In this document: positions 3,592 through 36,574 of the stretch, piece by piece
Layout of the letters: the number at the start of each line of letters is the position of its first letter
How positions within the stretch are numbered: position 1 is the first letter of the stretch
DNA from: Escherichia coli
GTDB taxonomy: Bacteria; Pseudomonadota; Gammaproteobacteria; Enterobacterales; Enterobacteriaceae
NCBI RefSeq assembly: GCF_050920415.1
Contig: NZ_CP169309.1
Length of the DNA: 64,000 nt
Strand: one strand, 5' to 3'
The notes under the pieces: generated by a model
The model's database searches: none
What the model was told of the DNA's origin: nothing
The model's input: only the letters and a program-made list of their open reading frames with translations
Translations under genes and position numbers: made by a program

Positions 3592-4677
3592 ATGGCTAAT
3601 ACTGTAAAAATATCCAGTTGTGAGTTAATCAACACTGATTGCCTGGAATTTATCCAGACCTTATCGGAAAACTCTGTCGATCTTATAGTCACAGACCCGC
3701 CATATTTTAAAGTGAAGCCCGAGGGCTGGGATAACCAGTGGAAGGGCGACGATGATTACCTAAAATGGCTGGACCAGTGTCTGGCTCAGTTCTGGCGGGT
3801 ACTGAAGCCTGCCGGAAGTCTTTACCTGTTTTGTGGTCATCGCCTGGCATCTGATATCGAAATCATGATGCGTGAGCGCTTTAATGTGCTGAACCACATT
3901 ATCTGGGCGAAGCCGTCCGGACGCTGGAACGGGTGCAACAAAGAAAGCCTGCGGGCGTATTTCCCGGCAACAGAGCGCATTCTGTTTGCCGAACATTATC
4001 AGGGGCCATATCAGCCAAAAAATGCCGGCTATGCGGCAAAGGAGCGCGAGCTTAAACAACACGTCATGGCCCCGCTGATTTTTTACTTTCGTGATGCGCG
4101 TGAATCACTGGGAATAACGTCCAAACAGATAGCGGAAGCCACCGGAAAGAAAAACATGGTGTCGCACTGGTTTGGTACCAGTCAGTGGCAGTTACCGAAC
4201 GAAGCTGATTACAGAAAACTGCAGGCGCTGTTCGCGCGTGTTGCAGAAGAAAAACACCAGCGTGGGGAGCTGGCAACGCCACACCAACTGCTGGTCAGCA
4301 CATACAGTGAACTGAACCGGCAATATGCCAGTCTGCTTGAGGAATACAAATCTCTGCGGCGTTATTTTTCTGTATCGGCCGCCGTTCCTTATACGGATGT
4401 CTGGACGCATAAGCCCGTACAGTATTATCCGGGTAAGCATCCCTGCGAAAAACCGGCGGATATGTTGCGTCAGATAATTTCTGCCAGCAGTCGTCCGGGG
4501 GATGTGGTTGCGGATTTTTTTATGGGATCGGGGGCAACAATAAAAGCAGCAATGGGATTGGGGCGTCGCACGATTGGGGTTGAACTTGAGTCCGGGCGTT
4601 TTGAACAAACAGTTGGTGAAATATTGGTGCTGAACGATAAATTGCGAAATGCACAATTAGATAAGAACAGGAGCTAA
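3592..4677 (+). CDS. DNA methyltransferase, beta-class (N6-adenine or N4-cytosine); apparently orphan
   Basis: Motif IV DPPY near N-terminus (LIVTDPPYF), motif I FxGxG-like (DFFMGSGAT) near C-terminus; no restriction endonuclease ORF adjacent. Confidence 0.85.
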   Translation: MANTVKISSCELINTDCLEFIQTLSENSVDLIVTDPPYFKVKPEGWDNQWKGDDDYLKWLDQCLAQFWRVLKPAGSLYLFCGHRLASDIEIMMRERFNVLNHIIWAKPSGRWNGCNKESLRAYFPATERILFAEHYQGPYQPKNAGYAAKERELKQHVMAPLIFYFRDARESLGITSKQIAEATGKKNMVSHWFGTSQWQLPNEADYRKLQALFARVAEEKHQRGELATPHQLLVSTYSELNRQYASLLEEYKSLRRYFSVSAAVPYTDVWTHKPVQYYPGKHPCEKPADMLRQIISASSRPGDVVADFFMGSGATIKAAMGLGRRTIGVELESGRFEQTVGEILVLNDKLRNAQLDKNRS

Positions 4678-7558: not shown

Positions 7559-7726
7559 ATTGTTCAAAAAACGAAAGAACGGAGGTACGTATGTACGCAC
7601 TGAAAAAGATTACGGTAACTGAAGATGGTCGTCAGTAGACTGGCCCCCTGAATCTCCAGACAACCAGTATCACTTAAATAAGTGATAGTCTTAATACTAG
7701 TTTTTAGACTAGTCATTGGAGAACAG

Positions 7727-8092
7727 ATGATTGATGTCTTAGGGCCGGAGAAACGCAGACGGCGTACCACACAGGAAAAGATCGCAATTGTTCAGCAGAG
7801 CTTTGAACCGGGGATGACGGTCTCCCTCGTTGCCCGGCAACATGGTGTAGCAGCCAGCCAGTTATTTCTCTGGCGTAAGCAATACCAGGAAGGAAGTCTT
7901 ACTGCTGTCGCCGCCGGAGAACAGGTTGTTCCTGCCTCTGAACTTGCTGCCGCCATGAAGCAGATTAAAGAACTCCAGCGCCTGCTCGGCAAGAAAACGA
8001 TGGAAAATGAACTCCTCAAAGAAGCCGTTGAATATGGACGGGCAAAAAAGTGGATAGCGCACGCGCCCTTATTGCCCGGGGATGGGGAGTAA
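7727..8092 (+). CDS. insC: IS2 transposase OrfA (InsC)
   Basis: Translation [41 protein letters not shown]... matches IS2 InsC. Confidence 0.9.
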
Positions 8093-8955
8093 GCTTAGTC
8101 AGCCGTTGTCTCCGGGTGTCGCGTGCGCAGTTGCACGTCATTCTCAGACGAACCGATGACTGGATGGATGGCCGCCGCAGTCGTCACACTGATGATACGG
8201 ATGTGCTTCTCCGTATACACCATGTTATCGGAGAGCTGCCCACGTATGGTTATCGTCGGGTATGGGCGCTGCTTCGCAGACAGGCAGAACTTGATGGTAT
8301 GCCTGCAATCAATGCCAAACGTGTTTACCGGATCATGCGCCAGAATGCGCTGTTGCTTGAGCGAAAACCTGCTGTACCGCCATCGAAACGGGCACATACA
8401 GGCAGAGTGGCCGTGAAAGAAAGCAATCAGCGATGGTGCTCTGACGGGTTCGAGTTCTGCTGTGATAACGGAGAGAGACTGCGTGTCACGTTCGCGCTGG
8501 ACTGCTGTGATCGTGAGGCACTGCACTGGGCGGTGACTACTGGCGGCTTCAACAGTGAAACAGTACAGGACGTCATGCTGGGAGCGGTGGAACGCCGCTT
8601 CGGCAACGATCTTCCGTCGTCTCCAGTGGAGTGGCTGACGGATAATGGTTCATGCTACCGGGCTAATGAAACACGCCAGTTCGCCCGGATGTTGGGACTT
8701 GAACCGAAGAACACGGCGGTGCGGAGTCCGGAGAGTAACGGAATAGCAGAGAGCTTCGTGAAAACGATAAAGCGTGACTACATCAGTATCATGCCCAAAC
8801 CAGACGGGTTAACGGCAGCAAAGAACCTTGCAGAGGCGTTCGAGCATTATAACGAATGGCATCCGCATAGTGCGCTGGGTTATCGCTCGCCACGGGAATA
8901 TCTGCGGCAGCGGGCTTGTAATGGGTTAAGTGATAACAGATGTCTGGAAATATAG
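8050..8955 (+). CDS. insD: IS2 transposase OrfB (InsD), DDE integrase-type
   Basis: 301-aa translation matches IS2 InsD; overlaps insC in the -1 frame as in IS2. Confidence 0.9.
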
Positions 8956-9236
8956 GGGCAAATCCAGTCAGGTTGAGGAAGTGCATGTCCTGGGGGGATA
9001 TGTATCGTATGGAGTTTTACCCGCGTAATACCCATCTGGCAGCAAAAATTGAGTATTGCCGGAACGGGAATATTTCATGTTTGCAGGTAGAGAAAACGGA
9101 TGAGGCTTATATCACTACGCTGAACGGCGATACGATGTCAGCGCCAATGATATAAGACAGTAATTCACCATTTGGATTGTCCGCTCCACCCAACATGTTG
9201 TTTCCTTAAGGTTCCTACACCACAAAGGGAACACTC

Positions 9237-11202
<1,966 letters not shown>

Positions 11203-11419
11203 TGACCAATAGCGGACATTAAAAATGGCGAAAAACGGCCAATAATCTTGGCGTTGACAACGATGCGTTGCATCTGTCGCGGCGACAGTAAAGCCCGGAA
11301 TGAAATGGCCAGATGTCGTACTCATACCAGTGAATAACAAGTAAAACCCCGGCGGCTGAAACAACCAAGGGGTTAACAGTGTAAATAAAACTGCCCATAT
11401 TGATGGGCAGCGCATGTAA

Positions 11420-12919: not shown

Positions 12920-13597
12920 TAGCGGGTTTTCGCTATTTACGAGTTTTTTTGAGGTGATGGTTGTTGTTTTATCGTTTGATATATCTACTTGATAAGTAAT
13001 AAGAAAGAAAAATAAACACAACAACCTGATGATCTTTCTTATACGAAAAAGCATGTAAAATCAGAGGGTTTTACAAAAAACGTGGTTGTTGTATTGCTTT
13101 TTTGCCGGTGGTTTATGGAGGGGCTGTGGCCTTTTTATTGAATAAAAGCGACATGGCCTCCTCCATCGGTATCTCAGTACAGGCATTTGATAAATGGGGT
13201 GTTCCTCCTGTTGAGCGCCGGGGGAGAGAGGTTTTCTATGACGTTAAAACTGTACTGGAGATAGATCGCGAGCGACGTCAACAAAACCAGAAATCTTCAG
13301 GTGGTGAAAATGATCTTGAGGAAAGGCTACTTCAGGCCAGGGTTAACCTGACGGAAGAACAGGCTATTGCTCAGCGGTTAAAAAACCAGGTTGCAGAGCA
13401 TAAGGTGATTGATACAGCTTTCTCTATTTTTGCCCTGTCCCGGTTATCCGGAGAACTGGCATCTGTTTTGGACAGTATTCCGCTTTCGATGCAAAGAAAA
13501 TTCCCTGAATTGACAGGCAGACAATTGGCTTATCTAAAAGAGCTGGTTGCGAAGGGGGCTAATAAATGCGTTGAGTCCGCTGAAAAAATGAAGGAAT

Positions 13598-17310
<3,713 letters not shown>

Positions 17311-17330
<20 letters not shown>

Positions 17331-18630
17331 TCTCCCGCATATTGCCAGCATGGCCTTTAATGAGCCGCTGATGCTTGAACCCGCCTATGCGCGGGTTTTC
17401 TTTTGTGCGCTAGCAGGCCAGCTTGGGATCAGCCGCCTGACAGATGCGGTGTCCGGTGACAGCCTGACTGCCCCGGAGACACCCGCGACGCTGGCGTTAT
17501 CTGGTGATGATGACGGACCACGACAGGCCCGCAGTTATCAGGTCATGAACGGCATCGCCGTGCTGCCGGTTTCCGGCACGCTGGTCAGCCGGACGCGGGC
17601 GCTGCAGCCGTATTCGGGGATGACCGGTTACAACGGCATTATCGCCCGTCTGCAACAGGCTGCCAGCGATCCGATGGTGGACGGCATTCTGCTCGATATG
17701 GACACGCCCGGCGGGATGGTGGCGGGGGCATTTGACTGCGCTGACATCATCGCCCGTGTGCGTGACATAAAACCGGTATGGGCGCTTGCCAACGACATGA
17801 ACTGCAGTGCAGGTCAGTTGCTTGCCAGTGCCGCTTCCCGGCGTCTGGTCACGCAGACCGCCCGGACAGGCTCCATCGGCGTCATGATGGCTCACAGCAA
17901 TTACGGTGCAGCGCTGGAGAAACAGGGCGTGGAAATCACGCTGATTTACAGCGGCAGCCATAAGGTGGATGGCAACCCCTACAGCCATCTTCCGGATGAC
18001 GTCCGGGAAACACTGCAGTCCCGGATGGATGCAACCCGCCAGATGTTTGCGCAGAAAGTGTCGGCATATACCGGCCTGTCCGTGCAGGCTGTGCTGGATA
18101 CCGAGGCTGCAGTGTACAGCGGTCAGGAGGCCATTGATGCCGGACTGGCTGATGAACTTGTTAACAGTACCGATGCGATCACCGTCATGCGTGATGCACT
18201 GGATACACGTAAATCCCGTCTCTCAGGAGGGCGAATGACCAAAGAGACTCAATCAACAACTGTTTCAGCCACTGCTTCGCAGGCTGACGTTACTGGCGTG
18301 GTGCAAGCGACGGAGGGCGAGAACGCCAGCGCTGCGCAGCCGGACGTGAACGCGCAGATCACCGCAGCGGTTGCGGCAGAAAACAGTCGCATTATGGGGA
18401 TCCTCAACTGTGAGGAGGCTCACGGACGCGAAGAACAGGCATGCGTGCTGGCCGAAACCCCCGGTATGACCGTGGAAACGGCCCGCCGTATTCTGGCCGC
18501 AGCACCACAGAGTGCACAGGCGCGCAGTGACACTGCGCTGGATCGTCTGATGCAGGGGGCACCGGCGCCGCTGGCTGCAGGTAACCCGGCATCTGATGCC
18601 GTTAACGATTTGCTGAACACACCAGTGTAA
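17311..18630 (+). CDS. C: Head maturation protease/scaffold C (GTG start with GGAGGAG RBS); Nu3 scaffold encoded in-frame in its 3' portion
   Basis: 439-aa translation from GTG 17311 (VTAELRNLPHIASMAFNEPLMLEP...) matches lambda gpC; the ORF-track start at 17176 lies within B. Confidence 0.9.
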
Positions 18631-18639
18631 GGGATGTTT

Positions 18640-18972
18640 ATGACGAGCAAAGAAACCTTTACCCATTACCAGCCGCTGGGCAACAGTGACCCGGCTCATA
18701 CCGCAACCGCGCCCGGCGTATTGAGTGCGAAAGCGCCTGCAATGACCCCGCTGATGCTGGACACCTCCACCCGTAAGCTGGTTGCGTGGGATGGCACCAC
18801 CGACGGTGCTGCCGTTGGCATTCTTGCAGTTGCTGCTGACCAGACCAGCACCACACTGACGTTCTACAAGTCCGGCACGTTCCGTTATGAGGATGTGCTC
18901 TGGCCGGAGGCTGCCAGCGACGAGACGAAAAAACGGACCGCGTTTGCCGGAACGGCAATCAGCATCGTTTAA
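18640..18972 (+). CDS. D: Head decoration protein D
   Basis: [12 protein letters not shown]... matches lambda gpD (110 aa). Confidence 0.9.
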
Positions 18973-18990
18973 CTTTACCCTTCATCACTA

Positions 18991-21448: not shown

Positions 21449-21840
21449 AACATACTGAACTCCGTGCAGCCGTACTGGATGCACTGGAGAAGCATGACAC
21501 CGGGGCGACGTTTTTTGATGGTCGCCCCGCTGTTTTTGATGAGGCGGATTTTCCGGCAGTTGCCGTTTATCTCACCGGCGCTGAATACACGGGCGAAGAG
21601 CTGGACAGCGATACCTGGCAGGCGGAGCTGCATATCGAAGTTTTCCTGCCTGCTCAGGTGCCGGATTCAGAGCTGGATTCGTGGATGGAGTCCCGGATTT
21701 ATCCGGTGATGAGCGATATCCCGGCACTGTCAGATTTGCTCACCAGTATGGTGGCCAGTGGCTATGACTACCGGCGCGACGATGATGCGGGCCTGTGGAG
21801 TTCTGCCGATCTGACTTATGTCATTACCTATGAAATGTGA
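21445..21840 (+). CDS. U: Tail terminator protein U
   Basis: 131 aa, matches lambda gpU. Confidence 0.9.
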
Positions 21841-21847
21841 GGACGAT

Positions 21848-22588
21848 ATGCCTGTACCAAATCCAGCAATACCGGTGAAAGGTGCCGGGACCACCCTGTG
21901 GGTTTATAACGGGAGCGGCGACCCTTATGCGAACCCGCTTTCAGACGTTGACTGGTCGCGTCTGGCTAAAGTTAAAGACCTGACGCCCGGCGAACTGACC
22001 GCTGAGTCCTATGACGACAGTTATCTCGATGATGAAGATGCGGACTGGACCGCGACCGGGCAGGGGCAGAAATCCGCCGGAGATACCAGCTTCACGCTGG
22101 CGTGGATGCCCGGAGAGCAGGGGCAGCAGGCGCTGCTGGCGTGGTTTAATGAAGGTGATACCCGTGCCTATAAAATCCGCTTCCCGAACGGCACGGTCGA
22201 TGTGTTCCGTGGCTGGGTCAGCAGTATCGGTAAGGCGGTGACGGCGAAGGAAGTGATCACCCGTACGGTGAAGGTCACCAATGTGGGCCGTCCGTCAATG
22301 GCAGAAGATCGCAGCACGGTAACAGCGGCAACCGGTATGACCGTGACGCCTGCCAGCTCCTCGGTGGTGAAAGGGCAGAGCACCACGCTGACCGTGGCAT
22401 TCCAGCCGGAGGGCGCAACTGACAAGAGCTTCCGTGCGGTGTCAGCGGATAAAACAAAAGCCACCGTGTCGGTCAGTGGTATGACCATCACCGTGAAAGG
22501 CGTTGCTGCAGGTAAGGTCAACATTCCGGTTTTATCCGGTAATGGTGAACTTGCTGCGGTTGCAGAAATCACTGTCACCGACAGTTAA
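21848..22588 (+). CDS. V: Major tail tube protein V (with C-terminal Ig-like domain)
   Basis: 246 aa from ATG 21848 ([20 protein letters not shown]...) matches lambda gpV. Confidence 0.95.
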
Positions 22589-22603
22589 TCCGGAGAGTCA
22601 GCG

Positions 22604-23028
22604 ATGTTCCTGAAAACCGAATCATTTGAACATAACGGTGTGACCGTCACGCTTTCTGAACTGTCAGCCCTGCAGCGCATTGAGCATCTCGCCCTGATGA
22701 AACGGCAGGCAGAACAGGCGGAGTCAGACAGCAACCGGAAGTTTACTGTGGAAGACGCGCCATCAGAACCGGCGCGTTTCTGGTGGCGATGTCCCTGTGG
22801 CATAACCATCCGCAGAAGACAAAGCTGCCGTCCATGAATGAAGCCGTTAAACAGATTGAGCAGGAAGTGCTTACCACCTGGCCCACGGAGGCAATTTCTC
22901 ATGCTGAAAACGTGGTGTACCGGCTGTCTGGTATGTATGAGTTTGTGGTGAATAATGCCCCTGAACAGACAGAGGACGCCGGGCCCGCAGAGCCTGTTTC
23001 TGCGGGAAAGTGTTCGACGGTGAGCTGA
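22604..23028 (+). pseudogene. G: Tail assembly chaperone G, disrupted by a 2-nt insertion near 22757-22760
   Basis: Two overlapping ORFs (22604..22837 and 22783..23028) each carry part of the lambda G sequence; reading switches frame at GAAGACGCGCCATC. Confidence 0.75.
23004..23010 (+). other. Programmed -1 ribosomal frameshift slippery heptamer GGGAAAG (G to G-T fusion)
   Basis: GGGAAAG at the 3' end of G with the T reading frame opening at this point, as in lambda. Confidence 0.8.
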
Positions 23029-23444
23029 GTTTTGCCCTGAAACTGGCGCGTGAGATGGGGCGACCTGACTGGCGTGCCATGCTTGCCGGGATGTCATCCA
23101 CGGAGTATGCCGACTGGCACCGCTTTTACAGTACCCATTATTTTCATGATGTTCTGCTGGATATGCACTTTTCCGGGCTGACGTACACCGTGCTCAGCCT
23201 GTTTTTCAGCGATCCGGATATGCATCCGCTGGATTTCAGTCTGCTGAACCGGCGCGAGGCTGACGAAGAGCCTGAAGATGATGTGCTGATGCAGAAAGCG
23301 GCAGGGCTTGCCGGAGGTGTCCGCTTTGGCCCGGACGGGAATGAAGTTATCCCCGCTTCCCCGGATGTGGCGGACATGACGGAGGATGACGTAATGCTGA
23401 TGACAGTATCAGAAGGGATCGCAGGAGGAGTCCGGTATGGCTGA
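23010..23444 (+). CDS. T: Tail assembly protein T (normally expressed only as the G-T frameshift fusion)
   Basis: 144-aa frame matching lambda T. Confidence 0.85.
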   Translation: MFDGELSFALKLAREMGRPDWRAMLAGMSSTEYADWHRFYSTHYFHDVLLDMHFSGLTYTVLSLFFSDPDMHPLDFSLLNRREADEEPEDDVLMQKAAGLAGGVRFGPDGNEVIPASPDVADMTEDDVMLMTVSEGIAGGVRYG

Positions 23445-25998
23445 ACCGGTAGGCGATCTGGTCGTTGATTTAAGTCTGGATGCGGCCAGATTTGACGAGC
23501 AGATGGCCAGAGTCAGGCGTCATTTTTCCGGTACGGAAAGTGATGCGAAAAAAACAGCGGCAGTCGTTGAACAGTCGCTGAGCCGACAGGCGCTGGCTGC
23601 ACAGAAAGCGGGGATTTCCGTCGGGCAGTATAAAGCCGCCATGCGTATGCTGCCTGCACAGTTCACCGACGTGGCCACGCAGCTTGCAGGCGGGCAAAGT
23701 CCGTGGCTGATCCTGCTGCAACAGGGGGGGCAGGTGAAGGACTCCTTCGGCGGGATGATCCCCATGTTCAGGGGGCTTGCCGGTGCGATCACCCTGCCGA
23801 TGGTGGGGGCCACCTCGCTGGCGGTGGCGACCGGTGCGCTGGCGTATGCCTGGTATCAGGGCAACTCAACCCTGTCCGATTTCAACAAAACGCTGGTCCT
23901 TTCCGGCAATCAGTCGGGTCTGACGGCAGATCGCATGCTGGTCCTGTCCAGAGCCGGGCAGGCGGCAGGGCTGACGTTTAACCAGACCAGCGAGTCACTC
24001 AGCGCACTGGTTAAGGCGGGGGTAAGCGGTGAGGCTCAGATTGCGTCCATCAGCCAGAGTGTGGCGCGTTTCTCCTCTGCATCCGGCGTGGAGGTGGACA
24101 AGGTCGCTGAAGCCTTCGGGAAGCTGACCACAGACCCGACGTCGGGGCTGACGGCGATGGCACGCCAGTTCCATAACGTGACGGCGGAGCAGATTGCGTA
24201 TGTTGCTCAGTTGCAGCGTTCCGGCGATGAAGCCGGGGCATTGCAGGCGGCGAACGAGGCCGCAACGAAAGGGTTTGATGACCAGACCCGCCGCCTGAAA
24301 GAGAACATGGGCACGCTGGAGACCTGGGCAGACAGGACTGCGCGGGCCTTCAAATCCATGTGGGATGCGGTGCTGGATATTGGTCGTCCTGATACCGCGC
24401 AGGAGATGCTGATTAAGGCAGAGGCTGCGTTTAAGAAAGCAGACGACATCTGGAATCTGCGCAAGGATGATTATTTTGTTAACGATGAAGCGCGGGCGCG
24501 TTACTGGGATGATCGTGAAAAGGCCCGTCTTGCGCTTGAAGCCGCCCGAAAGAAGGCTGAGCAGCAGACTCAACAGGACAAAAATGCGCAGCAGCAGAGC
24601 GATACCGAAGCGTCACGGCTGAAATATACCGAAGAGGCGCAGAAGGCTTACGAACGGCTGCAGACGCCGCTGGAGAAATATACCGCCCGTCAGGAAGAAC
24701 TGAACAAGGCACTGAAAGACGGGAAAATCCTGCAGGCGGATTACAACACGCTGATGGCGGCGGCGAAAAAGGATTATGAAGCGACGCTGAAAAAGCCGAA
24801 ACAGTCCGGCGTGAAGGTGTCTGCGGGCGATCGTCAGGAAGACAGTGCTCATGCTGCCCTGCTGACGCTTCAGGCAGAACTCCGGACGCTGGAGAAGCAT
24901 GCCGGAGCGAATGAGAAAATCAGCCAGCAGCGCCGGGATTTGTGGAAGGCAGAAAGTCAGTTCGCGGTACTGGAGGAGGCGGCACAACGTCGCCAGCTGT
25001 CCGCACAGGAGAAATCCCTGCTGGCGCATAAAGATGAGACGCTGGAGTACAAACGCCAGCTGGCTGCACTTGGCGACAAGGTTACGTATCAGGAGCGCCT
25101 GAACGCGCTGGCGCAGCAGGCGGATAAATTCGCACAGCAGCAACGGGCAAAACGGGCCGCCATTGATGCGAAAAGCCGGGGGCTGACTGACCGGCAGGCA
25201 GAACGGGAAGCCACGGAACAGCGCCTGAAGGAACAGTATGGCGATAATCCGCTGGCGCTGAATAACGTCATGTCAGAGCAGAAAAAGACCTGGGCGGCTG
25301 AAGACCAGCTTCGCGGGAGCTGGATGGCAGGCCTGAAGTCCGGCTGGAGTGAGTGGGAAGAGAGCGCCATGGACAGTATGTCGCAGGTAAAAAGTGCAGC
25401 CACGCAGACCTTTGATGGTATTGCACAGAATATGGCGGCGATGCTGACCGGCAGTGAGCAGAACTGGCGCAGCTTCACCCGTTCCGTGCTGTCCATGATG
25501 ACAGAAATTCTGCTTAAGCAGGCAATGGTGGGGATTGTCGGGAGTATCGGCAGCGCCATTGGCGGGGCTGTTGGTGGCGGCGCATCCGCGTCAGGCGGTA
25601 CAGCCATTCAGGCCGCTGCGGCGAAATTCCATTTTGCAACCGGAGGATTTACGGGAACCGGCGGCAAATATGAGCCAGCGGGGATTGTTCACCGTGGTGA
25701 GTTTGTCTTCACGAAGGAGGCAACCAGCCGGATTGGCGTGGGGAATCTCTACCGGCTGATGCGCGGCTATGCCACCGGTGGTTATGTCGGTACACCGGGC
25801 AGTCTGGCTGACAGCCGGTCGCAGGCGTCCGGGACGTTTGAGCAGAATAACCATGTGGTGATTAACAACGAAGGCACGAACGGGCAGATAGGGCCACAGG
25901 CGCTGAAGGCGGTTTATGACGTAGCCCGTAAGGCGGCAATGGATGTTGTGACCGGGCAGATGCGCGATGGTGGTCTGTTCTCCGGAGGTGGACGATGA
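23437..25998 (+). CDS. H: Tail tape measure protein H
   Basis: 853 aa, same length as lambda gpH, coiled-coil-rich translation. Confidence 0.95.
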   Translation: MAEPVGDLVVDLSLDAARFDEQMARVRRHFSGTESDAKKTAAVVEQSLSRQALAAQKAGISVGQYKAAMRMLPAQFTDVATQLAGGQSPWLILLQQGGQVKDSFGGMIPMFRGLAGAITLPMVGATSLAVATGALAYAWYQGNSTLSDFNKTLVLSGNQSGLTADRMLVLSRAGQAAGLTFNQTSESLSALVKAGVSGEAQIASISQSVARFSSASGVEVDKVAEAFGKLTTDPTSGLTAMARQFHNVTAEQIAYVAQLQRSGDEAGALQAANEAATKGFDDQTRRLKENMGTLETWADRTARAFKSMWDAVLDIGRPDTAQEMLIKAEAAFKKADDIWNLRKDDYFVNDEARARYWDDREKARLALEAARKKAEQQTQQDKNAQQQSDTEASRLKYTEEAQKAYERLQTPLEKYTARQEELNKALKDGKILQADYNTLMAAAKKDYEATLKKPKQSGVKVSAGDRQEDSAHAALLTLQAELRTLEKHAGANEKISQQRRDLWKAESQFAVLEEAAQRRQLSAQEKSLLAHKDETLEYKRQLAALGDKVTYQERLNALAQQADKFAQQQRAKRAAIDAKSRGLTDRQAEREATEQRLKEQYGDNPLALNNVMSEQKKTWAAEDQLRGSWMAGLKSGWSEWEESAMDSMSQVKSAATQTFDGIAQNMAAMLTGSEQNWRSFTRSVLSMMTEILLKQAMVGIVGSIGSAIGGAVGGGASASGGTAIQAAAAKFHFATGGFTGTGGKYEPAGIVHRGEFVFTKEATSRIGVGNLYRLMRGYATGGYVGTPGSLADSRSQASGTFEQNNHVVINNEGTNGQIGPQALKAVYDVARKAAMDVVTGQMRDGGLFSGGGR

Positions 25999-26324
25999 AA
26001 ACCTTCCGCTGGAAAGTGAAACCCGGTATGGATGTGGCTTCGGCCCCTTCCGTCAGGAAGGTGCGCTTTGGTGATGGCTATTCCCAGCGTGCGCCTGCCG
26101 GGCTGAATGCCGACCTGAAAACGTACAGTGTGACGCTTTCCGTGACCCGGGAGGAGGCCCGGCATCTGGAGTCGTTTCTGGCAGAGCACGGGGGCTGGAA
26201 GGCCTTTCTGTGGACGCCGCCTTATGGTTACAGGCAGATAAAGGTGACCTGCGCAAAATGGTCGTCGCAGGTCAGTATGTTGCGTGTTGAGTTCAGCGCA
26301 GAGTTTAAACAGGTGGTGAACTGA
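25995..26324 (+). CDS. M: Tail tip protein M
   Basis: 109 aa, matches lambda gpM. Confidence 0.9.
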   Translation: MKTFRWKVKPGMDVASAPSVRKVRFGDGYSQRAPAGLNADLKTYSVTLSVTREEARHLESFLAEHGGWKAFLWTPPYGYRQIKVTCAKWSSQVSMLRVEFSAEFKQVVN

Positions 26325-28370: not shown

Positions 28371-31300
28371 ATGGGTAAAGGCAGCAGTAAGGGGCATACC
28401 CCGCGCGAAGCGAAGGACAACCTGAAGTCCACGCAGCTGCTGAGTGTGATCGATGCCATCAGCGAAGGGCCGGTTGAAGGTCCGGTGGATGGATTAAAAA
28501 GCGTGCTGCTGAACAGTACACCTGTGCTGGACAGTGAGGGGAATACCAATATCTCCGGCGTCACGGTGGTGTTCCGGCCGGTGAGCAGGAGCAGACACCG
28601 CCGGAGGGGTTTGAATCCTCCGGCTCCGAGACGGTGCTGGGTACGGAAGTGAAATACGACACGCCGATCACCCGCACCATTACGTCTGCAAACATCGACC
28701 GTCTGCGCTTTACCTTCGGTGTACAGGCACTGGTGGAAACCACCTCAAAGGGTGACAGGAATCCGTCGGAAGTCCGCCTGCTGGTTCAGATACAACGTAA
28801 CGGTGGCTGGGTGACGGAAAAGGACATCACCATTAAGGGTAAAACCACTTCACAGTATCTGGCCTCGGTGGTGGTGGATAACCTGCCGCCGCGCCCGTTC
28901 AGTATCCGGATGCGCAGGATGACGCCGGACAGCACCACAGACCAGCTGCAGAACAAAACGCTCTGGTCGTCATACACTGAAATCATCGATGTGAAACAGT
29001 GCTACCCGAACACGGCACTGGTTGGCGTACAGGTGGACTCGGAACAGTTCGGCAGTCAGCAGGTGAGCCGTAATTATCATCTGCGCGGGCGCATTCTGCA
29101 GGTGCCGTCGAACTATAACCCGCAGACGCGGCAATACAGCGGTATCTGGGACGGAACGTTTAAACCGGCATACAGCAACAACATGGCCTGGTGTCTGTGG
29201 GATATGCTGACCCATCCGCGCTACGGCATGGGGAAACGTCTTGGTGCGGCGGATGTGGATAAATGGGCGCTGTATGTCATCGGCCAGTACTGCGACCAGT
29301 CAGTGCCGGACGGCTTTGGTGGCACGGAGCCGCGCATCACCTGTAATGCGTACCTGACCACACAGCGCAAGGCGTGGGATGTGCTCAGTGATTTCTGCTC
29401 GGCGATGCGCTGTATGCCGGTATGGAACGGGCAGACGCTGACGTTCGTGCAGGACCGACCGTCGGATAAGGTGTGGACCTATAACCGCAGTAATGTGGTG
29501 ATGCCGGATGATGGCGCGCCGTTCCGCTACAGCTTCAGCGCCCTGAAGGACCGCCATAATGCCGTTGAGGTGAACTGGATTGACCCGGACAACGGCTGGG
29601 AGACGGCGACAGAGCTTGTTGAAGATACGCAGGCCATTGCCCGTTACGGTCGTAATGTCACGAAGATGGATGCCTTTGGCTGTACCAGCCGGGGGCAGGC
29701 ACACCGCGCCGGGCTGTGGCTGATTAAAACGGAACTGCTGGAGACGCAGACCGTGGATTTCAGCGTGGGTGCTGAAGGGCTTCGCCATGTACCGGGCGAT
29801 GTCATTGAAATCTGCGATGATGACTATGCCGGTATCAGCACCGGTGGTCGCGTGCTGGCGGTGAACAGCCAGACCCGGACGCTGACGCTCGACCGTGAAA
29901 TCACGCTGCCATCCTCCGGTACCACGCTGATAAGCCTGGTTGACGGAAGTGGCAATCCGGTCAGCGTGGAGGTTCAGTCCGTCACCGACGGCGTGAAGGT
30001 AAAAGTGAGCCGTGTTCCTGACGGTGTTGCTGAATACAGCGTATGGGGGCTGAAGCTGCCGACGCTGCGCCAGCGACTGTTCCGCTGCGTGAGTATCCGT
30101 GAGAACGACGACGGCACGTATGCCATCACCGCCGTGCAGCATGTGCCGGAAAAAGAGGCCATCGTGGATAACGGGGCGCACTTTGACGGCGAACAGAGTG
30201 GCACGGTGAATGGTGTCACGCCGCCAGCGGTGCAGCACCTGACCGCAGAAGTCACTGCAGACAGCGGGGAATATCAGGTGCTGGCGCGCTGGGACACGCC
30301 GAAGGTGGTGAAGGGCGTGAGCTTCCTGCTTCGCCTGACCGTGGCAGCGGATGACGGCAGTGAGCGGCTGGTCAGCACGGCCCGGACGACGGAAACAACA
30401 TACCGCTTCAGGCAGCTGGCGCTGGGGCGGTACACGCTGACAGTCCGGGCGGTAAATGCGTGGGGGCAGCAGGGCGATCCGGCATCGGTATCGTTCCGGA
30501 TTGCCGCACCGGCAGCGCCGTCGCGGATTGAGCTGACGCCGGGCTATTTTCAGATAACCGCCACGCCGCATCTTGCGGTTTATGACCCGACGGTACAGTT
30601 TGAGTTCTGGTTCTCGGAAAAGCGGATTACCGATATCAGGCAGGTTGAAACCACAGCCCGCTATCTTGGTACGGCGCTGTACTGGATAGCCGCCAGTATC
30701 AATATCAAACCGGGCCATGATTATTACTTTTATATCCGCAGTGTGAACACCGTTGGCAAATCGGCATTCGTGGAGGCTGTTGGTCAGCCGAGTGATGATG
30801 CTTCCGGCTATCTGGATTTTTTCAAAGGAGTGATAGGGAAAACACACCTGGCTCAGGAGCTGTGGACGCAGATTGATAACGGTCAGCTTGCGCCTGACCT
30901 GGCTGAAATCAGGACGTCCATTACGGATGTCAGCAATGAAATCACACAGACCGTCAATAAGAAACTGGAAGACCAGAGTGCAGCGATCCAGCAGATACAG
31001 AAGGTTCAGGTTGATACAAATAATAACCTGAACAGCATGTGGGCTGTGAAGCTGCAGCAGATGCAGGACGGACGCCTTTATATCGCGGGTATCGGTGCCG
31101 GTATTGAGAACACCCCTGACGGCATGCAGAGTCAGGTGCTGCTGGCGGCGGACAGGATTGCGATGGTTAATCCTGCGAATGGCAACACAAAACCGATGTT
31201 TGTTGGTCAGGGCGATCAGATATTCATGAACGACGTGTTCCTGAAGCGCCTGACGGCCCCCACCATTACCAGCGGCGGCAATCCCCCGGCCTTTTCCCTG

Positions 31301-31849
31301 ACACCAGACGGAAAGCTGACCGCTAAAAATGCGGATATCAGTGGCAGTGTGAATGCGAACGCCGGGACGCTCAATAATGTCACGATTAATGAGAACTGTC
31401 AGATTCTGGGGAAACTGTCAGCTAATCAGATTGAAGGCGATATTGTTAAAACGGTGGGTAAGGCTTTCCCCCGTGACTCCCGGGCACCGGAGCGGTGGCC
31501 GTCAGGGACCATTACCGTCAGGGTTTATGACGATCAGCCTTTTGACCGGCAAATTGTCATTCCGGCGGTGGCATTCAGCGGTGCCAGACATGAGAGAGAG
31601 CATAATGACATTTATTCATCATGCCGTCTGATAGTGCGGAAAAACGGTGCTGAAATTTATAACCGTACCGCGCTGGATAATACGCTGATTTATACCGGTG
31701 TGATTGATATGCCAGCGGGTCGCGGTCACATGACGCTGGAGTTTTCGGTATCAGCGTGGCTGGTGAATGACTGGTATCCCACGGCAAGCATCAGCGATTT
31801 GCTGGTTGTGGTGATGAAGAAATCCACAGCCGGTATCAGTATCAGCTGA
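28371..31849 (+). pseudogene. J: Central tail fibre / host-specificity protein J, disrupted by a 1-nt frameshift near 28578; C-terminal receptor-binding region appears divergent from lambda J
   Basis: N-terminal 93-aa ORF (28371..28652) matches the J N-terminus; the rest (28634..31849) continues in another frame. Confidence 0.8.
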
Positions 31850-31907: not shown

Positions 31908-34492
31908 ATGGCAGTAAAGATTTCAGGCGTGCTGAAAGACGGTGCAGGTAAACCGGTACAGAACTGCACCATTCAGCTGAAAGCAAAACGTAACAGTACC
32001 ACGGTGGTGGTGAACACGGTGGCCTCAGAAAATCCGGATGAAGCCGGGCGTTACAGTATGGACGTTGAGTACGGCCAGTACGGTGTCATCCTGCTGGTTG
32101 AAGGTTTTCCGCCGTCACATGCCGGCACCATCACCGTGTATGAAGATTCTGAGCCGGGGACGCTGAATGATTTTCTCGGTGCCATGACGGAGGATGATGC
32201 CCGTCCGGAGGCACTGCGCCGTTTTGAACTGATGGTGGAAGAGGTGGCGCGTAACGCGTCCGCAGTGGCACAGAACACGGCAGCCGCGAAAAAATCCGCC
32301 GGCGATGCCGGAACATCTGCCCGTGAGGCGGCAACCCATGCGACTGATGCTGCAGGCTCAGCACGCGCCGCCAGCACGTCCGCCGGACAGGCTGCGACGT
32401 CAGCACAGGAAGCATCTTCCGGCGCAGAAACAGCCTCAGCAAAGGCCGCTGAGGCATCAAAAAGTGCTGCCGCTGCAGAGTCCTCAAAAAGCGCGGCGGC
32501 CACCAGTGCCGGTGCCGCGAAAACGTCAGAAACGAATGCGGCAGCGTCACAACAATCAGCCGCCACGTCTGCATCCACCGCGACCACGAAAGCGTCAGAA
32601 GCTGCCACGTCAGCCAGGGATGCGGCGGCCTCAAAAGAGGCGGCAAAATCATCAGAAACGAGCGCAGCCTCGAGCGCCGGTAGTGCAGCTTCCTCGGCAA
32701 CGGCGGCAGGAAATTCCGCGAAGGCGGCAAAGACGTCTGAGACGACGCCAGGTCTTCTGAAACGGCAGCGGAACAGAGTGCCTCCGCAGCAGCAGGCTCA
32801 GAAACTGCCGCTGCATCATCGTCCCGTGAGGCGTCAGTTAAAGCGGAGGAGGCATCAGCCAGTGCCACCGCCGCCGGAAAATCGGCAGAAAGTGCCGCAT
32901 CGTCCGCTTCAGCAGCCACAACGAAGGCTGGCGAAGCCACTGAACAGGCCACTGCAGCAGTGAGGTCTGCTTCCGCTGCGAGGACATCCGAGACGAACGC
33001 GAAAGCGTCGGAAACCCGTGCAGAATCTTCAGAAACGGCTGCCGTATCGTCCGCCAGTTCGGCGGCGTCATCAGCATCATCGGCGTCAGCTTCAAAAGAT
33101 GAGGCGGCAAGGCTGGCGTCAGAGGCGCAGGGCAGTGCCACGACGGCATCCGCGAAGGCGACAGAGGCAGCTGGCAGTGCGACAGCGGCAGCACAGAGCA
33201 AAAGCACGGCAGAATCCGCGGCAACGCGCGCCGAGACTGCGGCAAAACGGGCGGAGGATATTGCGTCTGCCGTGGCGCTTGAGGATGCGAGCACGACGAA
33301 AAAGGGGATAGTCCAGCTCAGCAGTGCAACCAACAGCACTTCCGAGTCACTGGCGGCAACACCAAAGGCCGTAAAAGCCGCCTGTGAGAATGCTGAGAAA
33401 CGACTGCAGAAAGATAAGAACGGTGCGGATGTCCCCGACAAAGACACCTTTACGAAAAATATTGGTGCCTGCCGTGCCTTCGGTGGGGCCGTAAGCACAA
33501 CGACAGGAGACTGGACGACCGCACAGTTTATCGGGTGGCTGGATTCTCAGGGCGCATTTAACCACCCATACTGGATGTGCAAGGGCTCCTGGTCTTACGG
33601 TAATAATAAAATCATCACGGATACGGGCTGCGGAAATATTCATCTCGCCGGCGCTGTCATTGAGGTGATGGGGATAAAGTCAGCGATGACGATCCGCATA
33701 ACCACACCGACAACATCCAGCGGAAGTGGAACGGCGAATGCGCAGTTTACCTATATTAATCATGGTGATGGTTATTCCCCTGGCTGGCGTCGTGACTACA
33801 ACACGAAAAACAAGCCACCGGCCTTTGCGCTGGGAAAAACCGGGGAAACGCTCGCCGATACAGATGCCGTCGCCTGGAACCTGGACAGTGGCGCTTATTG
33901 TGCACAGGATGGTGGCGCATCATCCTTAATTCTTCATTTTAATACAGGGGAAGGCAGCTGCCCCGCGGTCCAGTTTCGGGTGAATTACCGGAATGGCGGG
34001 ATATTTTACCGCTCCGCCCGTGATGGCTATGGCTTTGAGGCGGACTGGGAGCGTCTGTTCACGACAACGGGCGGGACCCTGGAAGGTGCTGTGGGTATCG
34101 GTGCACAGAATACGCTGGGCGGCCATTCACTTGCGCTGGGGAGGGGCGACACAGGCCTGAAACAAAACGGCGACGGTAATCTTGATGTTTACGCCGGTAA
34201 CGCACGTGTAATGCGCTTTACAAACGGCAGCATTCAGGTCAGTAAAGGGCTGAATGTGTCCGGGCGCGTTAATCCTTCCGATTACAGTAATTTTGATATC
34301 CGCTATGTCAGGGATATCCGGCTGGGTACGCGTGTTGTTCAGGGCATGCAAAAAGGCGTGACGTATGAGAAATCCGGCCATGTCATTACGGGGCTTTGTC
34401 TTGTCGGGGATGCTGATGGCGATAACTCAGCGGTTTACCGGCCGGTGCAAAAATACATAAACGGCACATGGTTTAACGTATCGCAGGTATAA
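31908..34492 (+). pseudogene. stf: Side tail fibre protein Stf, disrupted by a 1-nt frameshift near 32747 within the Ala/Ser/Thr-rich repeat region
   Basis: N-terminus MAVKISGVLKDGAGKPVQNCTIQLKA... and the conserved GIVQLSSATNSTSESLAATPKAVKAA motif lie in different frames; genuine repeat sequence continues in the other frame across 32741. Confidence 0.75.
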
Positions 34493-35290: not shown

Positions 35291-36574
35291 ATGGATTTCC
35301 AGTTATATTCGCTCGGCGCAGCGTTAGTGTTTCATGAAATATTTTTTCCTGAATCATCAACGGCAATGGCGTTAATTCTGGCAATGGGAACCTACGGTGC
35401 AGGTTATGTGGCGCGTATTGTCGGAGCATTTATTTTCGGCAAAATGGGCGACAGAATCGGGCGTAAAAAAGTGCTCTTTATTACCATCACTATGATGGGG
35501 ATCTGTACCACCTTAATTGGTGTGCTGCCGACCTATGCACAAATTGGTGTGTTTGCGCCAATTTTGCTGGTGACGCTGCGTATTATTCAGGGGCTGGGGG
35601 CAGGCGCGGAAATTTCCGGTGCCGGTACGATGCTGGCGGAATATGCGCCAAAAGGTAAGCGCGGAATTATCTCCTCATTTGTTGCTATGGGGACTAACTG
35701 CGGAACCTTGAGCGCAACGGCAATCTGGGCCTTTATGTTCTTCATTCTCAGTAAAGAGGAACTGTTGGCGTGGGGATGGCGTATACCGTTCCTGGCGAGC
35801 GTTGTCGTGATGGTCTTTGCTATCTGGTTGCGTATGAATCTGAAAGAAAGCCCGGTCTTTGAGAAGGTTAACGACAGCAACCAACCGACAGCAAAACCTG
35901 CACCTGCTGGTAGCATGTTCCAGAGCAAATCCTTCTGGCTGGCAACAGGGCTGCGTTTTGGTCAGGCTGGTAACTCAGGTTTAATTCAGACTTTCCTTGC
36001 AGGCTATTTAGTGCAGACGTTATTGTTTAACAAAGCAATTCCAACAGATGCATTGATGATCAGTTCGATTCTCGGCTTTATGACCATTCCGTTCCTTGGT
36101 TGGTTATCCGATAAAATTGGTCGCCGGATCCCGTATATTATTATGAATACCTCTGCGATTGTGCTGGCGTGGCCAATGCTTTCTATCATCGTAGATAAAA
36201 GCTATGCCCCGAGCACCATTATGGTTGCACTGATTGTGATTCATAACTGTGCGGTGCTGGGATTATTTGCTCTGGAAAACATTACCATGGCAGAAATGTT
36301 CGGCTGTAAAAATCGCTTTACCCGGATGGCCATTTCTAAAGAAATTGGTGGTCTTATCGCTTCCGGTTTTGGTCCTATCCTGGCGGGTATTTTCTGCACC
36401 ATGACGGAATCCTGGTATCCGATCGCCATTATGATCATGGCATATTCAGTGATTGGTTTAATCTCTGCGCTGAAAATGCCAGAAGTGAAAGACCGTGATT
36501 TAAGTGCACTGGAAGATGCCGCGGAAGATCAACCGCGTGTTGTAACAGCTGCGCAACCTTCAAGAAGTCTGTAA
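35291..36574 (+). pseudogene. ydfJ: MFS transporter YdfJ, 5'-truncated by the prophage insertion (prophage right junction about 35285-35290)
   Basis: 427-aa ORF lacking the first TM region of the family; in-frame stop immediately upstream of the ATG; same arrangement as Qin-interrupted ydfJ in K-12. Confidence 0.8.

What the first reader, a model, noticed from the sequence alone, without database searches (positions are those of the whole stretch)
22604..23028. Tail assembly chaperone G disrupted by a 2-nt insertion upstream of the intact programmed frameshift site
G is split into two overlapping ORFs; the switch is at GAAGACGCGCCATC, where a GC dinucleotide appears duplicated. The GGGAAAG slippery site and the T frame are intact, but both G and the G-T fusion would be lost, which should abolish tail assembly.
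Basis: partly seen in the sequence, partly recalled or inferred. Interest (0 to 1): 0.45.

Follow-up and report, generated by a model that had tools for sequence, protein, structure and literature searches.

The report
Frameshifted lambda tail chaperone gene G
A prophage copy of the phage lambda tail-assembly gene G carries two extra bases that break its reading frame; this is either a leftover sequencing/assembly error or one more lesion in an already broken prophage, and is ordinary either way.

Summary
Window 22604-23444 is the lambda G/T gene pair, 99.3% identical to lambda. It has two extra bases (GC/CG inside CGCGC, 22755-22759) after codon 52 of G. Deleting them restores a 140-aa gpG that differs from lambda's at two residues. 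The GGGAAAG slippery site (23004-23010) and the T frame are intact.

As written, G stops at 22835-22837, so neither gpG nor gpGT can be made.

The insertion was found nowhere else: not among about 6,500 homologous copies in 5,426 complete E. coli genomes, not in 81 full-length phage records, and not in three exact-match scans of large collections.

It is not alone. Against a near-identical sibling genome (5 SNPs, no indels in 29 kb of host flank), the window has four private frameshifting indels: in istA, G, J and the side tail fibre. All four lie in multi-copy mobile DNA. Three are 1-nt deletions in short homopolymers, and two sit at Dam or Dcm methylation sites.

That pattern fits residual long-read consensus errors in repeats (about 55%). 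A real null allele in a decaying prophage is nearly as likely (about 42%). Only reads can decide. Nothing here is novel, and interest is low.

The parts
22592..22597 (+). Shine-Dalgarno-like GGAGAG upstream of the G start codon
   Evidence: read directly from the sequence
22604..22837 (+). 5' fragment of gene G: native codons 1-52, then 25 out-of-frame codons and a TGA stop (77 aa)
   Evidence: ORF list; TIGR01674 phage_lambda_G profile positions 1-52, E 6.6e-23
22755..22759 (+). CGCGC, where lambda and all relatives have CGC. This is the 2-nt insertion; aligners place it at 22756-22757
   Evidence: alignments; absent from every other copy examined
22783..23028 (+). 3' fragment of gene G in the native frame (residues 60-140). 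There is no convincing ribosome-binding site before its GTG or ATG
   Evidence: ORF list; TIGR01674 positions 60-137, E 8e-32; upstream contexts
22834..22837 (+). ATGA overlap: the stop codon of the 5' fragment (22835-22837) overlaps the ATG of native Met77 (22834-22836). This is the only conceivable reinitiation point
   Evidence: sequence; gene callers call the 64-aa ORF starting at this ATG in other disrupted alleles
23004..23010 (+). Programmed -1 frameshift heptamer G GGA AAG, intact
   Evidence: the lambda slippery sequence GGGAAAG is given in PMC3296357
23010..23444 (+). T reading frame (144 codons), intact. In lambda it is expressed only as the G-T fusion
   Evidence: TIGR01715 phage_lam_T, E 1.9e-56; one synonymous-level difference from lambda DNA
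21818..22588 (+). Major tail protein V gene, the upstream neighbour
   Evidence: ORF list; annotation of the collinear sibling locus
23437..25998 (+). Tape measure protein H gene (853 aa), the downstream neighbour, intact
   Evidence: ORF list; annotation of the sibling

Best explanation
The locus is the lambda-type tail assembly chaperone gene pair G/GT in a lambdoid prophage inserted in ydfJ. The sequence as written carries a private 2-nt insertion after codon 52. That would end translation 167 nt before the GGGAAAG slip site and remove both gpG and gpGT.

Most likely the two bases are not in the organism's DNA. I read them as a residual consensus or polishing error of a long-read-based assembly, sitting in DNA that is repeated several times per genome and so cannot be corrected with short reads. 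On this reading the underlying G gene is intact and ordinary.

Shown: the insertion, its uniqueness, and its company of three other private frameshifts confined to repeats. Inferred: that the cause is technical.
For: (a) Uniqueness. The best full-length matches among about 6,555 homologous places in 5,426 complete E. coli genomes all lack the 2 nt. All 81 full-length phage records have a 423-nt G. Exact-pattern scans of genome contigs, viral contigs and metagenome contigs gave 0 hits. The 77-aa product is absent from the 15-billion-protein collection.

(b) Comparison with the sibling genome MFDS1022581. The window differs by only 5 SNPs outside two mosaic patches and has no indel in 29 kb of host flank. 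Yet it has four private frameshifting indels: istA at 10257, G at 22756-22757, J at 28575 and stf at 32744. The J and stf deletions are also absent from all complete genomes.

(c) Rate. With about 1e-4 substitutions per site, only about 0.2-0.5 real indels are expected in the prophage. P(>=4) is 6e-5 to 2e-3.

(d) Location. All four lie in multi-copy DNA. The sibling has 6 places for G-T, 4 for ISEc62 and 20+11 for IS2. P = 0.034 under uniform placement.

(e) Error type. Three of the four are 1-nt deletions in 2-3-nt homopolymers. The istA change destroys a GATC Dam site, and the stf change is 4 nt from a CCAGG Dcm site. P(>=2 of 4 within 5 nt of such a motif) = 0.025.

(f) Assembly type. The contig runs through IS2, ISEc62 and lambdoid tail genes, which implies long reads. 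Residual long-read errors that persist in repeats after short-read polishing are documented (Polypolish, PMC8812927).

(g) The sibling assembly shows the same kind of private 1-nt indels in the same elements.
Against: A 2-nt tandem duplication is not the classic long-read error, which is a change in homopolymer length.

The G site is not at a Dam or Dcm motif.

The inserted bases cannot be derived from the alternative G allele, TCTCG, that occurs at this spot.

The IS2 copy in the window has the canonical 1,331-nt length with no indel, so not every repeat carries errors.

The strain has a genuine private IS2 insertion with a 5-bp target duplication, so real decay of this prophage is under way.

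The motif and clustering statistics are post hoc and rest on n = 4.

No reads or assembly metadata were available.
Confidence: 0.55

Rival explanations
1. The insertion is real. A GC tandem duplication from replication slippage on CGC created a null allele of G and GT. It is one of several inactivating lesions in a prophage that is decaying under relaxed selection. The prophage can make no tails, and would fail anyway because J and stf are also broken.
For: Tandem duplication of a dinucleotide next to its own copy is a typical spontaneous insertion, and it is atypical of long-read homopolymer errors.

The host flank is clean, so the assembly is accurate overall.

The prophage carries a bona fide private IS2 insertion and a shared ISEc62 insertion in the late region.

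G is found disrupted by independent deletions in other public contigs: L015, L016 and L022.

Frameshifted prophage genes are common in annotated E. coli genomes.
Against: Four private frameshifts against five SNPs since the split from the sibling is far more than a neutral indel rate allows.

Three of the four look like consensus errors, being short-homopolymer deletions, and two sit at methylation motifs.

None of the four is shared with any other genome.

If most of the set are artefacts, the prior that the G change is real is low.
Confidence: 0.42
2. The insertion is real but expression is partly rescued. One route is termination-reinitiation at the ATGA overlap (22834-22837), giving a 64-aa C-terminal G fragment and its T fusion. 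The other is a compensating +1 or -2 ribosomal shift between 22757 and 22835. Either would leave some chaperone activity.
For: The stop of the shifted frame overlaps the ATG of native Met77, and the slippery site downstream is intact.
Against: There is no Shine-Dalgarno sequence before Met77, and no recognisable +1 slippery motif in the 80-nt shifted stretch (my inspection).

A restart at Met77 would lack 76 of the 125 residues covered by the Phage_TAC_2 domain.

No natural allele has this arrangement as a conserved feature. The other contigs with a 64-aa ORF are deletions or error-rich assemblies.
Confidence: 0.03

Closest known systems
Bacteriophage lambda genes G and T (gpG / gpGT tail assembly chaperones with a programmed -1 frameshift at GGGAAAG; Levin, Hendrix & Casjens 1993, as cited in PMC3296357)
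   Same: 99.3% DNA identity over G-T. The repaired protein differs at 2 of 140 residues. The gene order V-G-T-H is the same. The slippery heptamer is the same and at the same place, and the T frame is the same.
   Different: Two extra bases after codon 52 break the G frame as written. No phage record shows this.
Intact gpG WP_000479146.1 in E. coli prophages (e.g. strains 442/2, JCKP02, MFDS1022581)
   Same: The DNA is identical to the window over all 839 shared positions of G-T (99.8% = the gap only). In MFDS1022581 the prophage is the same and sits at the same ydfJ site.
   Different: These copies lack the 2-nt insertion and are annotated as intact genes.
Residual indel errors in repeats of long-read bacterial assemblies (Polypolish paper, PMC8812927)
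   Same: The small indels are private and restricted to multi-copy IS and prophage DNA, next to clean unique sequence. Most are 1-nt homopolymer deletions.
   Different: The G change is a 2-nt insertion, not a change in homopolymer length. The sequencing technology of the source is unknown.

Membership tests
lambda gpG/gpGT tail assembly chaperone (TIGR01674 / PF06894 + TIGR01715 / PF06223) | Sequence match to the G family profile | tested here: met
   The two fragments hit TIGR01674 at positions 1-52 and 60-137, both above the cut-off. Repaired G hits PF06894 over 1-125 of 126, E 2.6e-60.
lambda gpG/gpGT tail assembly chaperone (TIGR01674 / PF06894 + TIGR01715 / PF06223) | A downstream overlapping ORF in the -1 frame that matches protein T | tested here: met
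   ORF 23010-23444 hits TIGR01715, E 1.9e-56.
lambda gpG/gpGT tail assembly chaperone (TIGR01674 / PF06894 + TIGR01715 / PF06223) | Slippery heptamer G GGA AAG just before the G stop codon | tested here: met
   23004-23010, identical to lambda (PMC3296357 Table 1).
lambda gpG/gpGT tail assembly chaperone (TIGR01674 / PF06894 + TIGR01715 / PF06223) | Location between the major tail protein gene and the tape measure gene | tested here: met
   V at 21818-22588 and H at 23437-25998.
lambda gpG/gpGT tail assembly chaperone (TIGR01674 / PF06894 + TIGR01715 / PF06223) | Uninterrupted reading frame from the G start codon to the slippery site, i.e. a functional gene | tested here: not met
   A +2 frameshift after codon 52, with a stop at 22835-22837. 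The sequence belongs to the family, but as written it is a pseudogene.
lambda gpG/gpGT tail assembly chaperone (TIGR01674 / PF06894 + TIGR01715 / PF06223) | Production of gpG and about 4% gpGT, and the requirement of both for tail assembly | not testable with these tools
   Needs protein or phage assays. Known for lambda (PMC3296357).
Residual assembly/consensus error | The variant is private to this assembly | tested here: met
Residual assembly/consensus error | It lies in DNA that is repeated within the genome | tested here: inconclusive
   The sibling genome has 6 places matching G-T. The window's own genome outside the 64 kb could not be examined.
Residual assembly/consensus error | It is accompanied by an excess of other private small indels in repeats, with clean unique sequence alongside | tested here: met
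   4 private indels against 5 SNPs, and none in 29 kb of host DNA.
Residual assembly/consensus error | Homopolymer or methylation-motif context | tested here: not met
   Not met for the G insertion itself. Met for the other three indels.
Residual assembly/consensus error | Not supported by the raw reads | not testable with these tools
   No reads were available, and the source genome is not in the gene index.
Genuine prophage pseudogene | Other inactivating lesions of clearly biological origin in the same prophage | tested here: met
   IS2 with a 5-bp target duplication at 7636-8966, and ISEc62 at 9136-11262.

The most novel reading that the evidence does not exclude
The 2-nt insertion is real, and ribosomes that terminate at the ATGA overlap (22834-22837) reinitiate at Met77. 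This would give an N-terminally truncated G and, through the intact GGGAAAG slip, a truncated G-T fusion that keeps some tape-measure chaperone activity. It would be a natural separation-of-function allele of a phage tail assembly chaperone.
Probability: 0.02. Interest if true: 0.35.

Novelty: already known. Interest (0 to 1): 0.08.

Why it matters
It matters little. If real, it is one more private null mutation in a lambdoid prophage that is already crippled by IS insertions and by frameshifts in J and the side tail fibre.

If it is an artefact, it is a reminder that frameshifts in multi-copy prophage genes of long-read assemblies should not be read as biology without read support.

Its practical use is as a quality flag for this assembly's repeat regions.

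Tried and rejected
(1) I looked for the same insertion elsewhere, to obtain independent confirmation. I used megablast of 841-nt and 101-nt queries against 5,426 complete E. coli genomes and against phage records. I ran exact 33-nt pattern scans of genome contigs, viral contigs and metagenome contigs. I also made exact protein look-ups of the 77-aa, 81-aa, 79-aa and 64-aa products. No occurrence with the insertion was found.

(2) The 79-aa and 64-aa products do exist in public data. Their contigs begin inside G, carry larger deletions, contain N runs, or are error-rich. None has the GC insertion.

(3) I tried to find the source genome through its private products: the J 93-aa fragment, the stf 351-aa fragment and H of 853 aa. 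None is on record. The IS2 junction is in no complete genome either.

(4) I tested whether the insertion could be a chimera of two G alleles at the polymorphic patch CGCCA/TCTCG. The inserted bases are not those of the other allele, so this stays a weak lead only.

(5) I looked for a solved structure of gpG to judge what a Met77 restart would retain. There is none.

(6) I considered translational read-through by a compensating +1 or -2 shift. No motif supports it.

Full report
**What is there**

Window 22604-23444 is the G/T gene pair of a lambda-like prophage. It lies between the major tail protein gene V (21818-22588) and the tape measure gene H (23437-25998).

Over these 841 nt the window is 99.3% identical to phage lambda. 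It is 99.8% identical to prophages in E. coli 442/2, JCKP02 and MFDS1022581. In every one of these matches 841 query bases align to 839 record bases.

The three-way alignment shows a single indel. Lambda and E. coli 442/2 read GAAGA--CGCCATC, and the window reads GAAGACGCGCCATC. CGC has therefore become CGCGC at 22755-22759. The aligner places the gap at 22756-22757.

The effects on the reading frames are as follows.
- ORF 22604-22837 encodes G residues 1-52 followed by 25 out-of-frame residues.
- The native frame resumes as ORF 22783-23028, equal to residues 60-140.
- NCBIfam TIGR01674 (phage_lambda_G) matches the two pieces at profile positions 1-52 and 60-137.
- TIGR01715 (phage_lam_T) matches the intact T frame at 23010-23444.
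- Deleting the two bases restores a 140-aa protein identical to lambda gpG except Q73K and M74L. Pfam PF06894 covers residues 1-125 of it.
- The slippery heptamer G GGA AAG is intact at 23004-23010. It is the sequence given for lambda G/GT in PMC3296357.

**Consequence as written**

In lambda, gpGT is made only when ribosomes translating G slip -1 at GGGAAAG, which happens about 4% of the time. Both gpG and gpGT are needed for normal phage production (PMC3296357, citing Levin et al. 1993).

Here ribosomes would stop at the TGA at 22835-22837, which is 167 nt before the slip site. Neither product would be made.

The only conceivable rescue is reinitiation at the ATG of native Met77. That ATG (22834-22836) overlaps the stop as ATGA. 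There is no Shine-Dalgarno sequence before it, and the product would lack 76 of the 125 residues of the chaperone domain. I found no +1 or -2 slippery motif in the shifted stretch. I give rescued expression about 3%.

**How unusual the insertion is**

It was not found in any other sequence I could search.
- A 101-nt query centred on the insertion found about 6,555 homologous places in 3,614 of 5,426 complete E. coli genomes. The best full-length matches are all 98.0%, meaning perfect except for the 2-nt gap.
- All 81 phage records that cover the whole gene have a 423-nt G.
- Exact 33-nt pattern scans of genome contigs, viral contigs and metagenome contigs returned nothing.
- The 77-aa product is not among about 15 billion proteins.
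- Shorter ORFs from the 3' half of G do occur in public data. Those contigs start inside G or carry unrelated deletions, N runs or many errors. None has this insertion.

**Context: a sibling genome**

The whole window is collinear with E. coli MFDS1022581 (NZ_CP169399.1). The prophage sits in ydfJ in both.

Outside two mosaic patches (13.3-19.0 kb and 25.7-26.2 kb) the two sequences differ by five SNPs. The 29 kb of host DNA from 35 to 64 kb has 2-3 SNPs and no indel.

The window has a private IS2 at 7636-8966. It is 1,331 bp long, has a 5-bp target duplication, and its junction is in no complete genome. The window shares an ISEc62 (IS21-family) insertion at about 9136-11262 with the sibling.

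**Four private frameshifts**

Besides G, the window has three more private frameshifting changes.
- J: a 1-nt deletion at 28575 (GGG to GG). It splits J into ORFs 28371-28652 and 28634-31849.
- Side tail fibre: a 1-nt deletion at 32744 (GAACG to GACG). It splits an 861-codon ORF into pieces of 351 and 510 codons.
- istA of ISEc62: a 1-nt deletion at 10257 plus a C>T change 4 nt away.

The J and tail-fibre deletions are absent from every complete E. coli genome. Their truncated products are not in the gene index.

The sibling assembly has its own three private 1-nt deletions in ISEc62 and the portal gene. It also has frameshifted host genes nearby.

**Real or artefact?**

Several points favour an artefact.
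- Rate. With about 1e-4 substitutions per site between the siblings, and indels roughly a tenth as frequent as substitutions (my own knowledge of E. coli mutation-accumulation work), about 0.2-0.5 real indels are expected in the prophage on the window's branch. Four are seen, giving P = 6e-5 to 2e-3.
- Location. All four lie in the 27-kb block of IS and prophage structural DNA, giving P = 0.034 under uniform placement. This DNA is multi-copy in the sibling: 6 places for G-T, 4 for ISEc62 and 31 for IS2.
- Type. Three of the four are 1-nt deletions in 2-3-nt runs.
- Methylation motifs. The istA change destroys a GATC Dam site, and the tail-fibre change is 4 nt from a CCAGG Dcm site, giving P = 0.025 for at least 2 of 4. 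This test is post hoc.
- Assembly type. A contig that runs through IS2, ISEc62 and lambdoid tail genes must come from long reads. Residual long-read errors are known to survive short-read polishing specifically in repeats (PMC8812927).

Several points favour a real mutation.
- A 2-nt tandem duplication is not a typical long-read error.
- The G site is not at a methylation motif.
- The IS2 copy has no indel.
- The private IS2 insertion shows that real decay of this prophage is under way.

The insertion does fall in a 5-nt patch where G alleles differ (CGCCA versus TCTCG). That is where misplaced reads could confuse a polisher. However, the inserted bases are not those of the other allele, so this is only a weak lead.

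My estimate is about 55% artefact, about 42% a real null allele, and about 3% real with rescued expression. Only reads or resequencing can settle it.

**Comparison with what is known**

By sequence, gene order and recoding signal this is lambda G/GT. The one defining feature it fails, as written, is an open G frame. No solved structure of gpG exists to refine the functional argument.

Under both main readings the finding is ordinary. It is either a quality blemish of an assembly in repeated DNA, or one of several lesions in a defective prophage whose J and tail-fibre genes are also broken. The claim that the G lesion "should abolish tail assembly" is correct in principle, but G would not be the sole or decisive cause.

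**Verdict**

- Observation: confirmed.
- Interpretation: partly supported.
- Novelty: none.
- Interest: low (0.08).

Noticed in passing
window 28371-31849 (indel at 28575): Tail tip gene J is frameshifted by a 1-nt deletion (CCGGGCC to CCGGCC). It is split into ORFs of 93 aa and 1071 aa. The deletion is absent from all complete E. coli genomes searched.
   Followed up: yes
window 31908-34492 (indel at 32744): The side tail fibre gene, an 861-codon ORF in the sibling genome, is frameshifted by a 1-nt deletion (GAACG to GACG). The deletion lies 4 nt upstream of a CCAGG Dcm site and is private to the window.
   Followed up: yes
window 7636-8966: A full-length IS2 (1,331 bp, 5-bp target duplication) is inserted just downstream of the endolysin gene. 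It is absent at this site from the sibling and from every complete E. coli genome.
   Followed up: yes
window 9136-11262 (indel at 10257): An ISEc62 (IS21-family) element lies between the lysis genes and bor/terminase and is shared with the sibling. In the window, istA has a private 1-nt deletion plus a C>T change that together destroy a GATC Dam site. The sibling has two different private 1-nt deletions in the same element.
   Followed up: yes
window 13301-18976 and 25698-26192: Two patches of dense SNPs (about 105 and about 24) separate the window from the otherwise near-identical sibling. They lie in terminase-portal-protease and in the 3' end of H plus M. They could be prophage-prophage recombination or paralogue mixing in one of the assemblies.
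   Followed up: no
window 35291-36574: The prophage's right end abuts a ydfJ that is truncated at its N-terminus. This is the Qin-type attachment site. Normal host genes (ydfI, dcp, mar operon, lsr operon) follow to the end of the window.
   Followed up: partly
L015, L016, L022 (public contigs; G region): Independent in-gene deletions of 30-44 nt disrupt G in other public assemblies. In each, gene callers predict the same 64-aa ORF starting at the ATG of Met77, the ATG that the window's shifted-frame stop overlaps.
   Followed up: partly
L004 1-2709 (GCA_964049915.1 contig CAXKDK010000008.1): A called 902-aa gene runs into the middle of G on this contig. This suggests a rearrangement or fusion upstream of G residue 62.
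   Followed up: no
window 3592-4677: The prophage encodes a DNA methyltransferase (361 aa, annotated as such in the sibling). It could add a strain-specific methylation motif, which would be relevant to nanopore error patterns.
   Followed up: no
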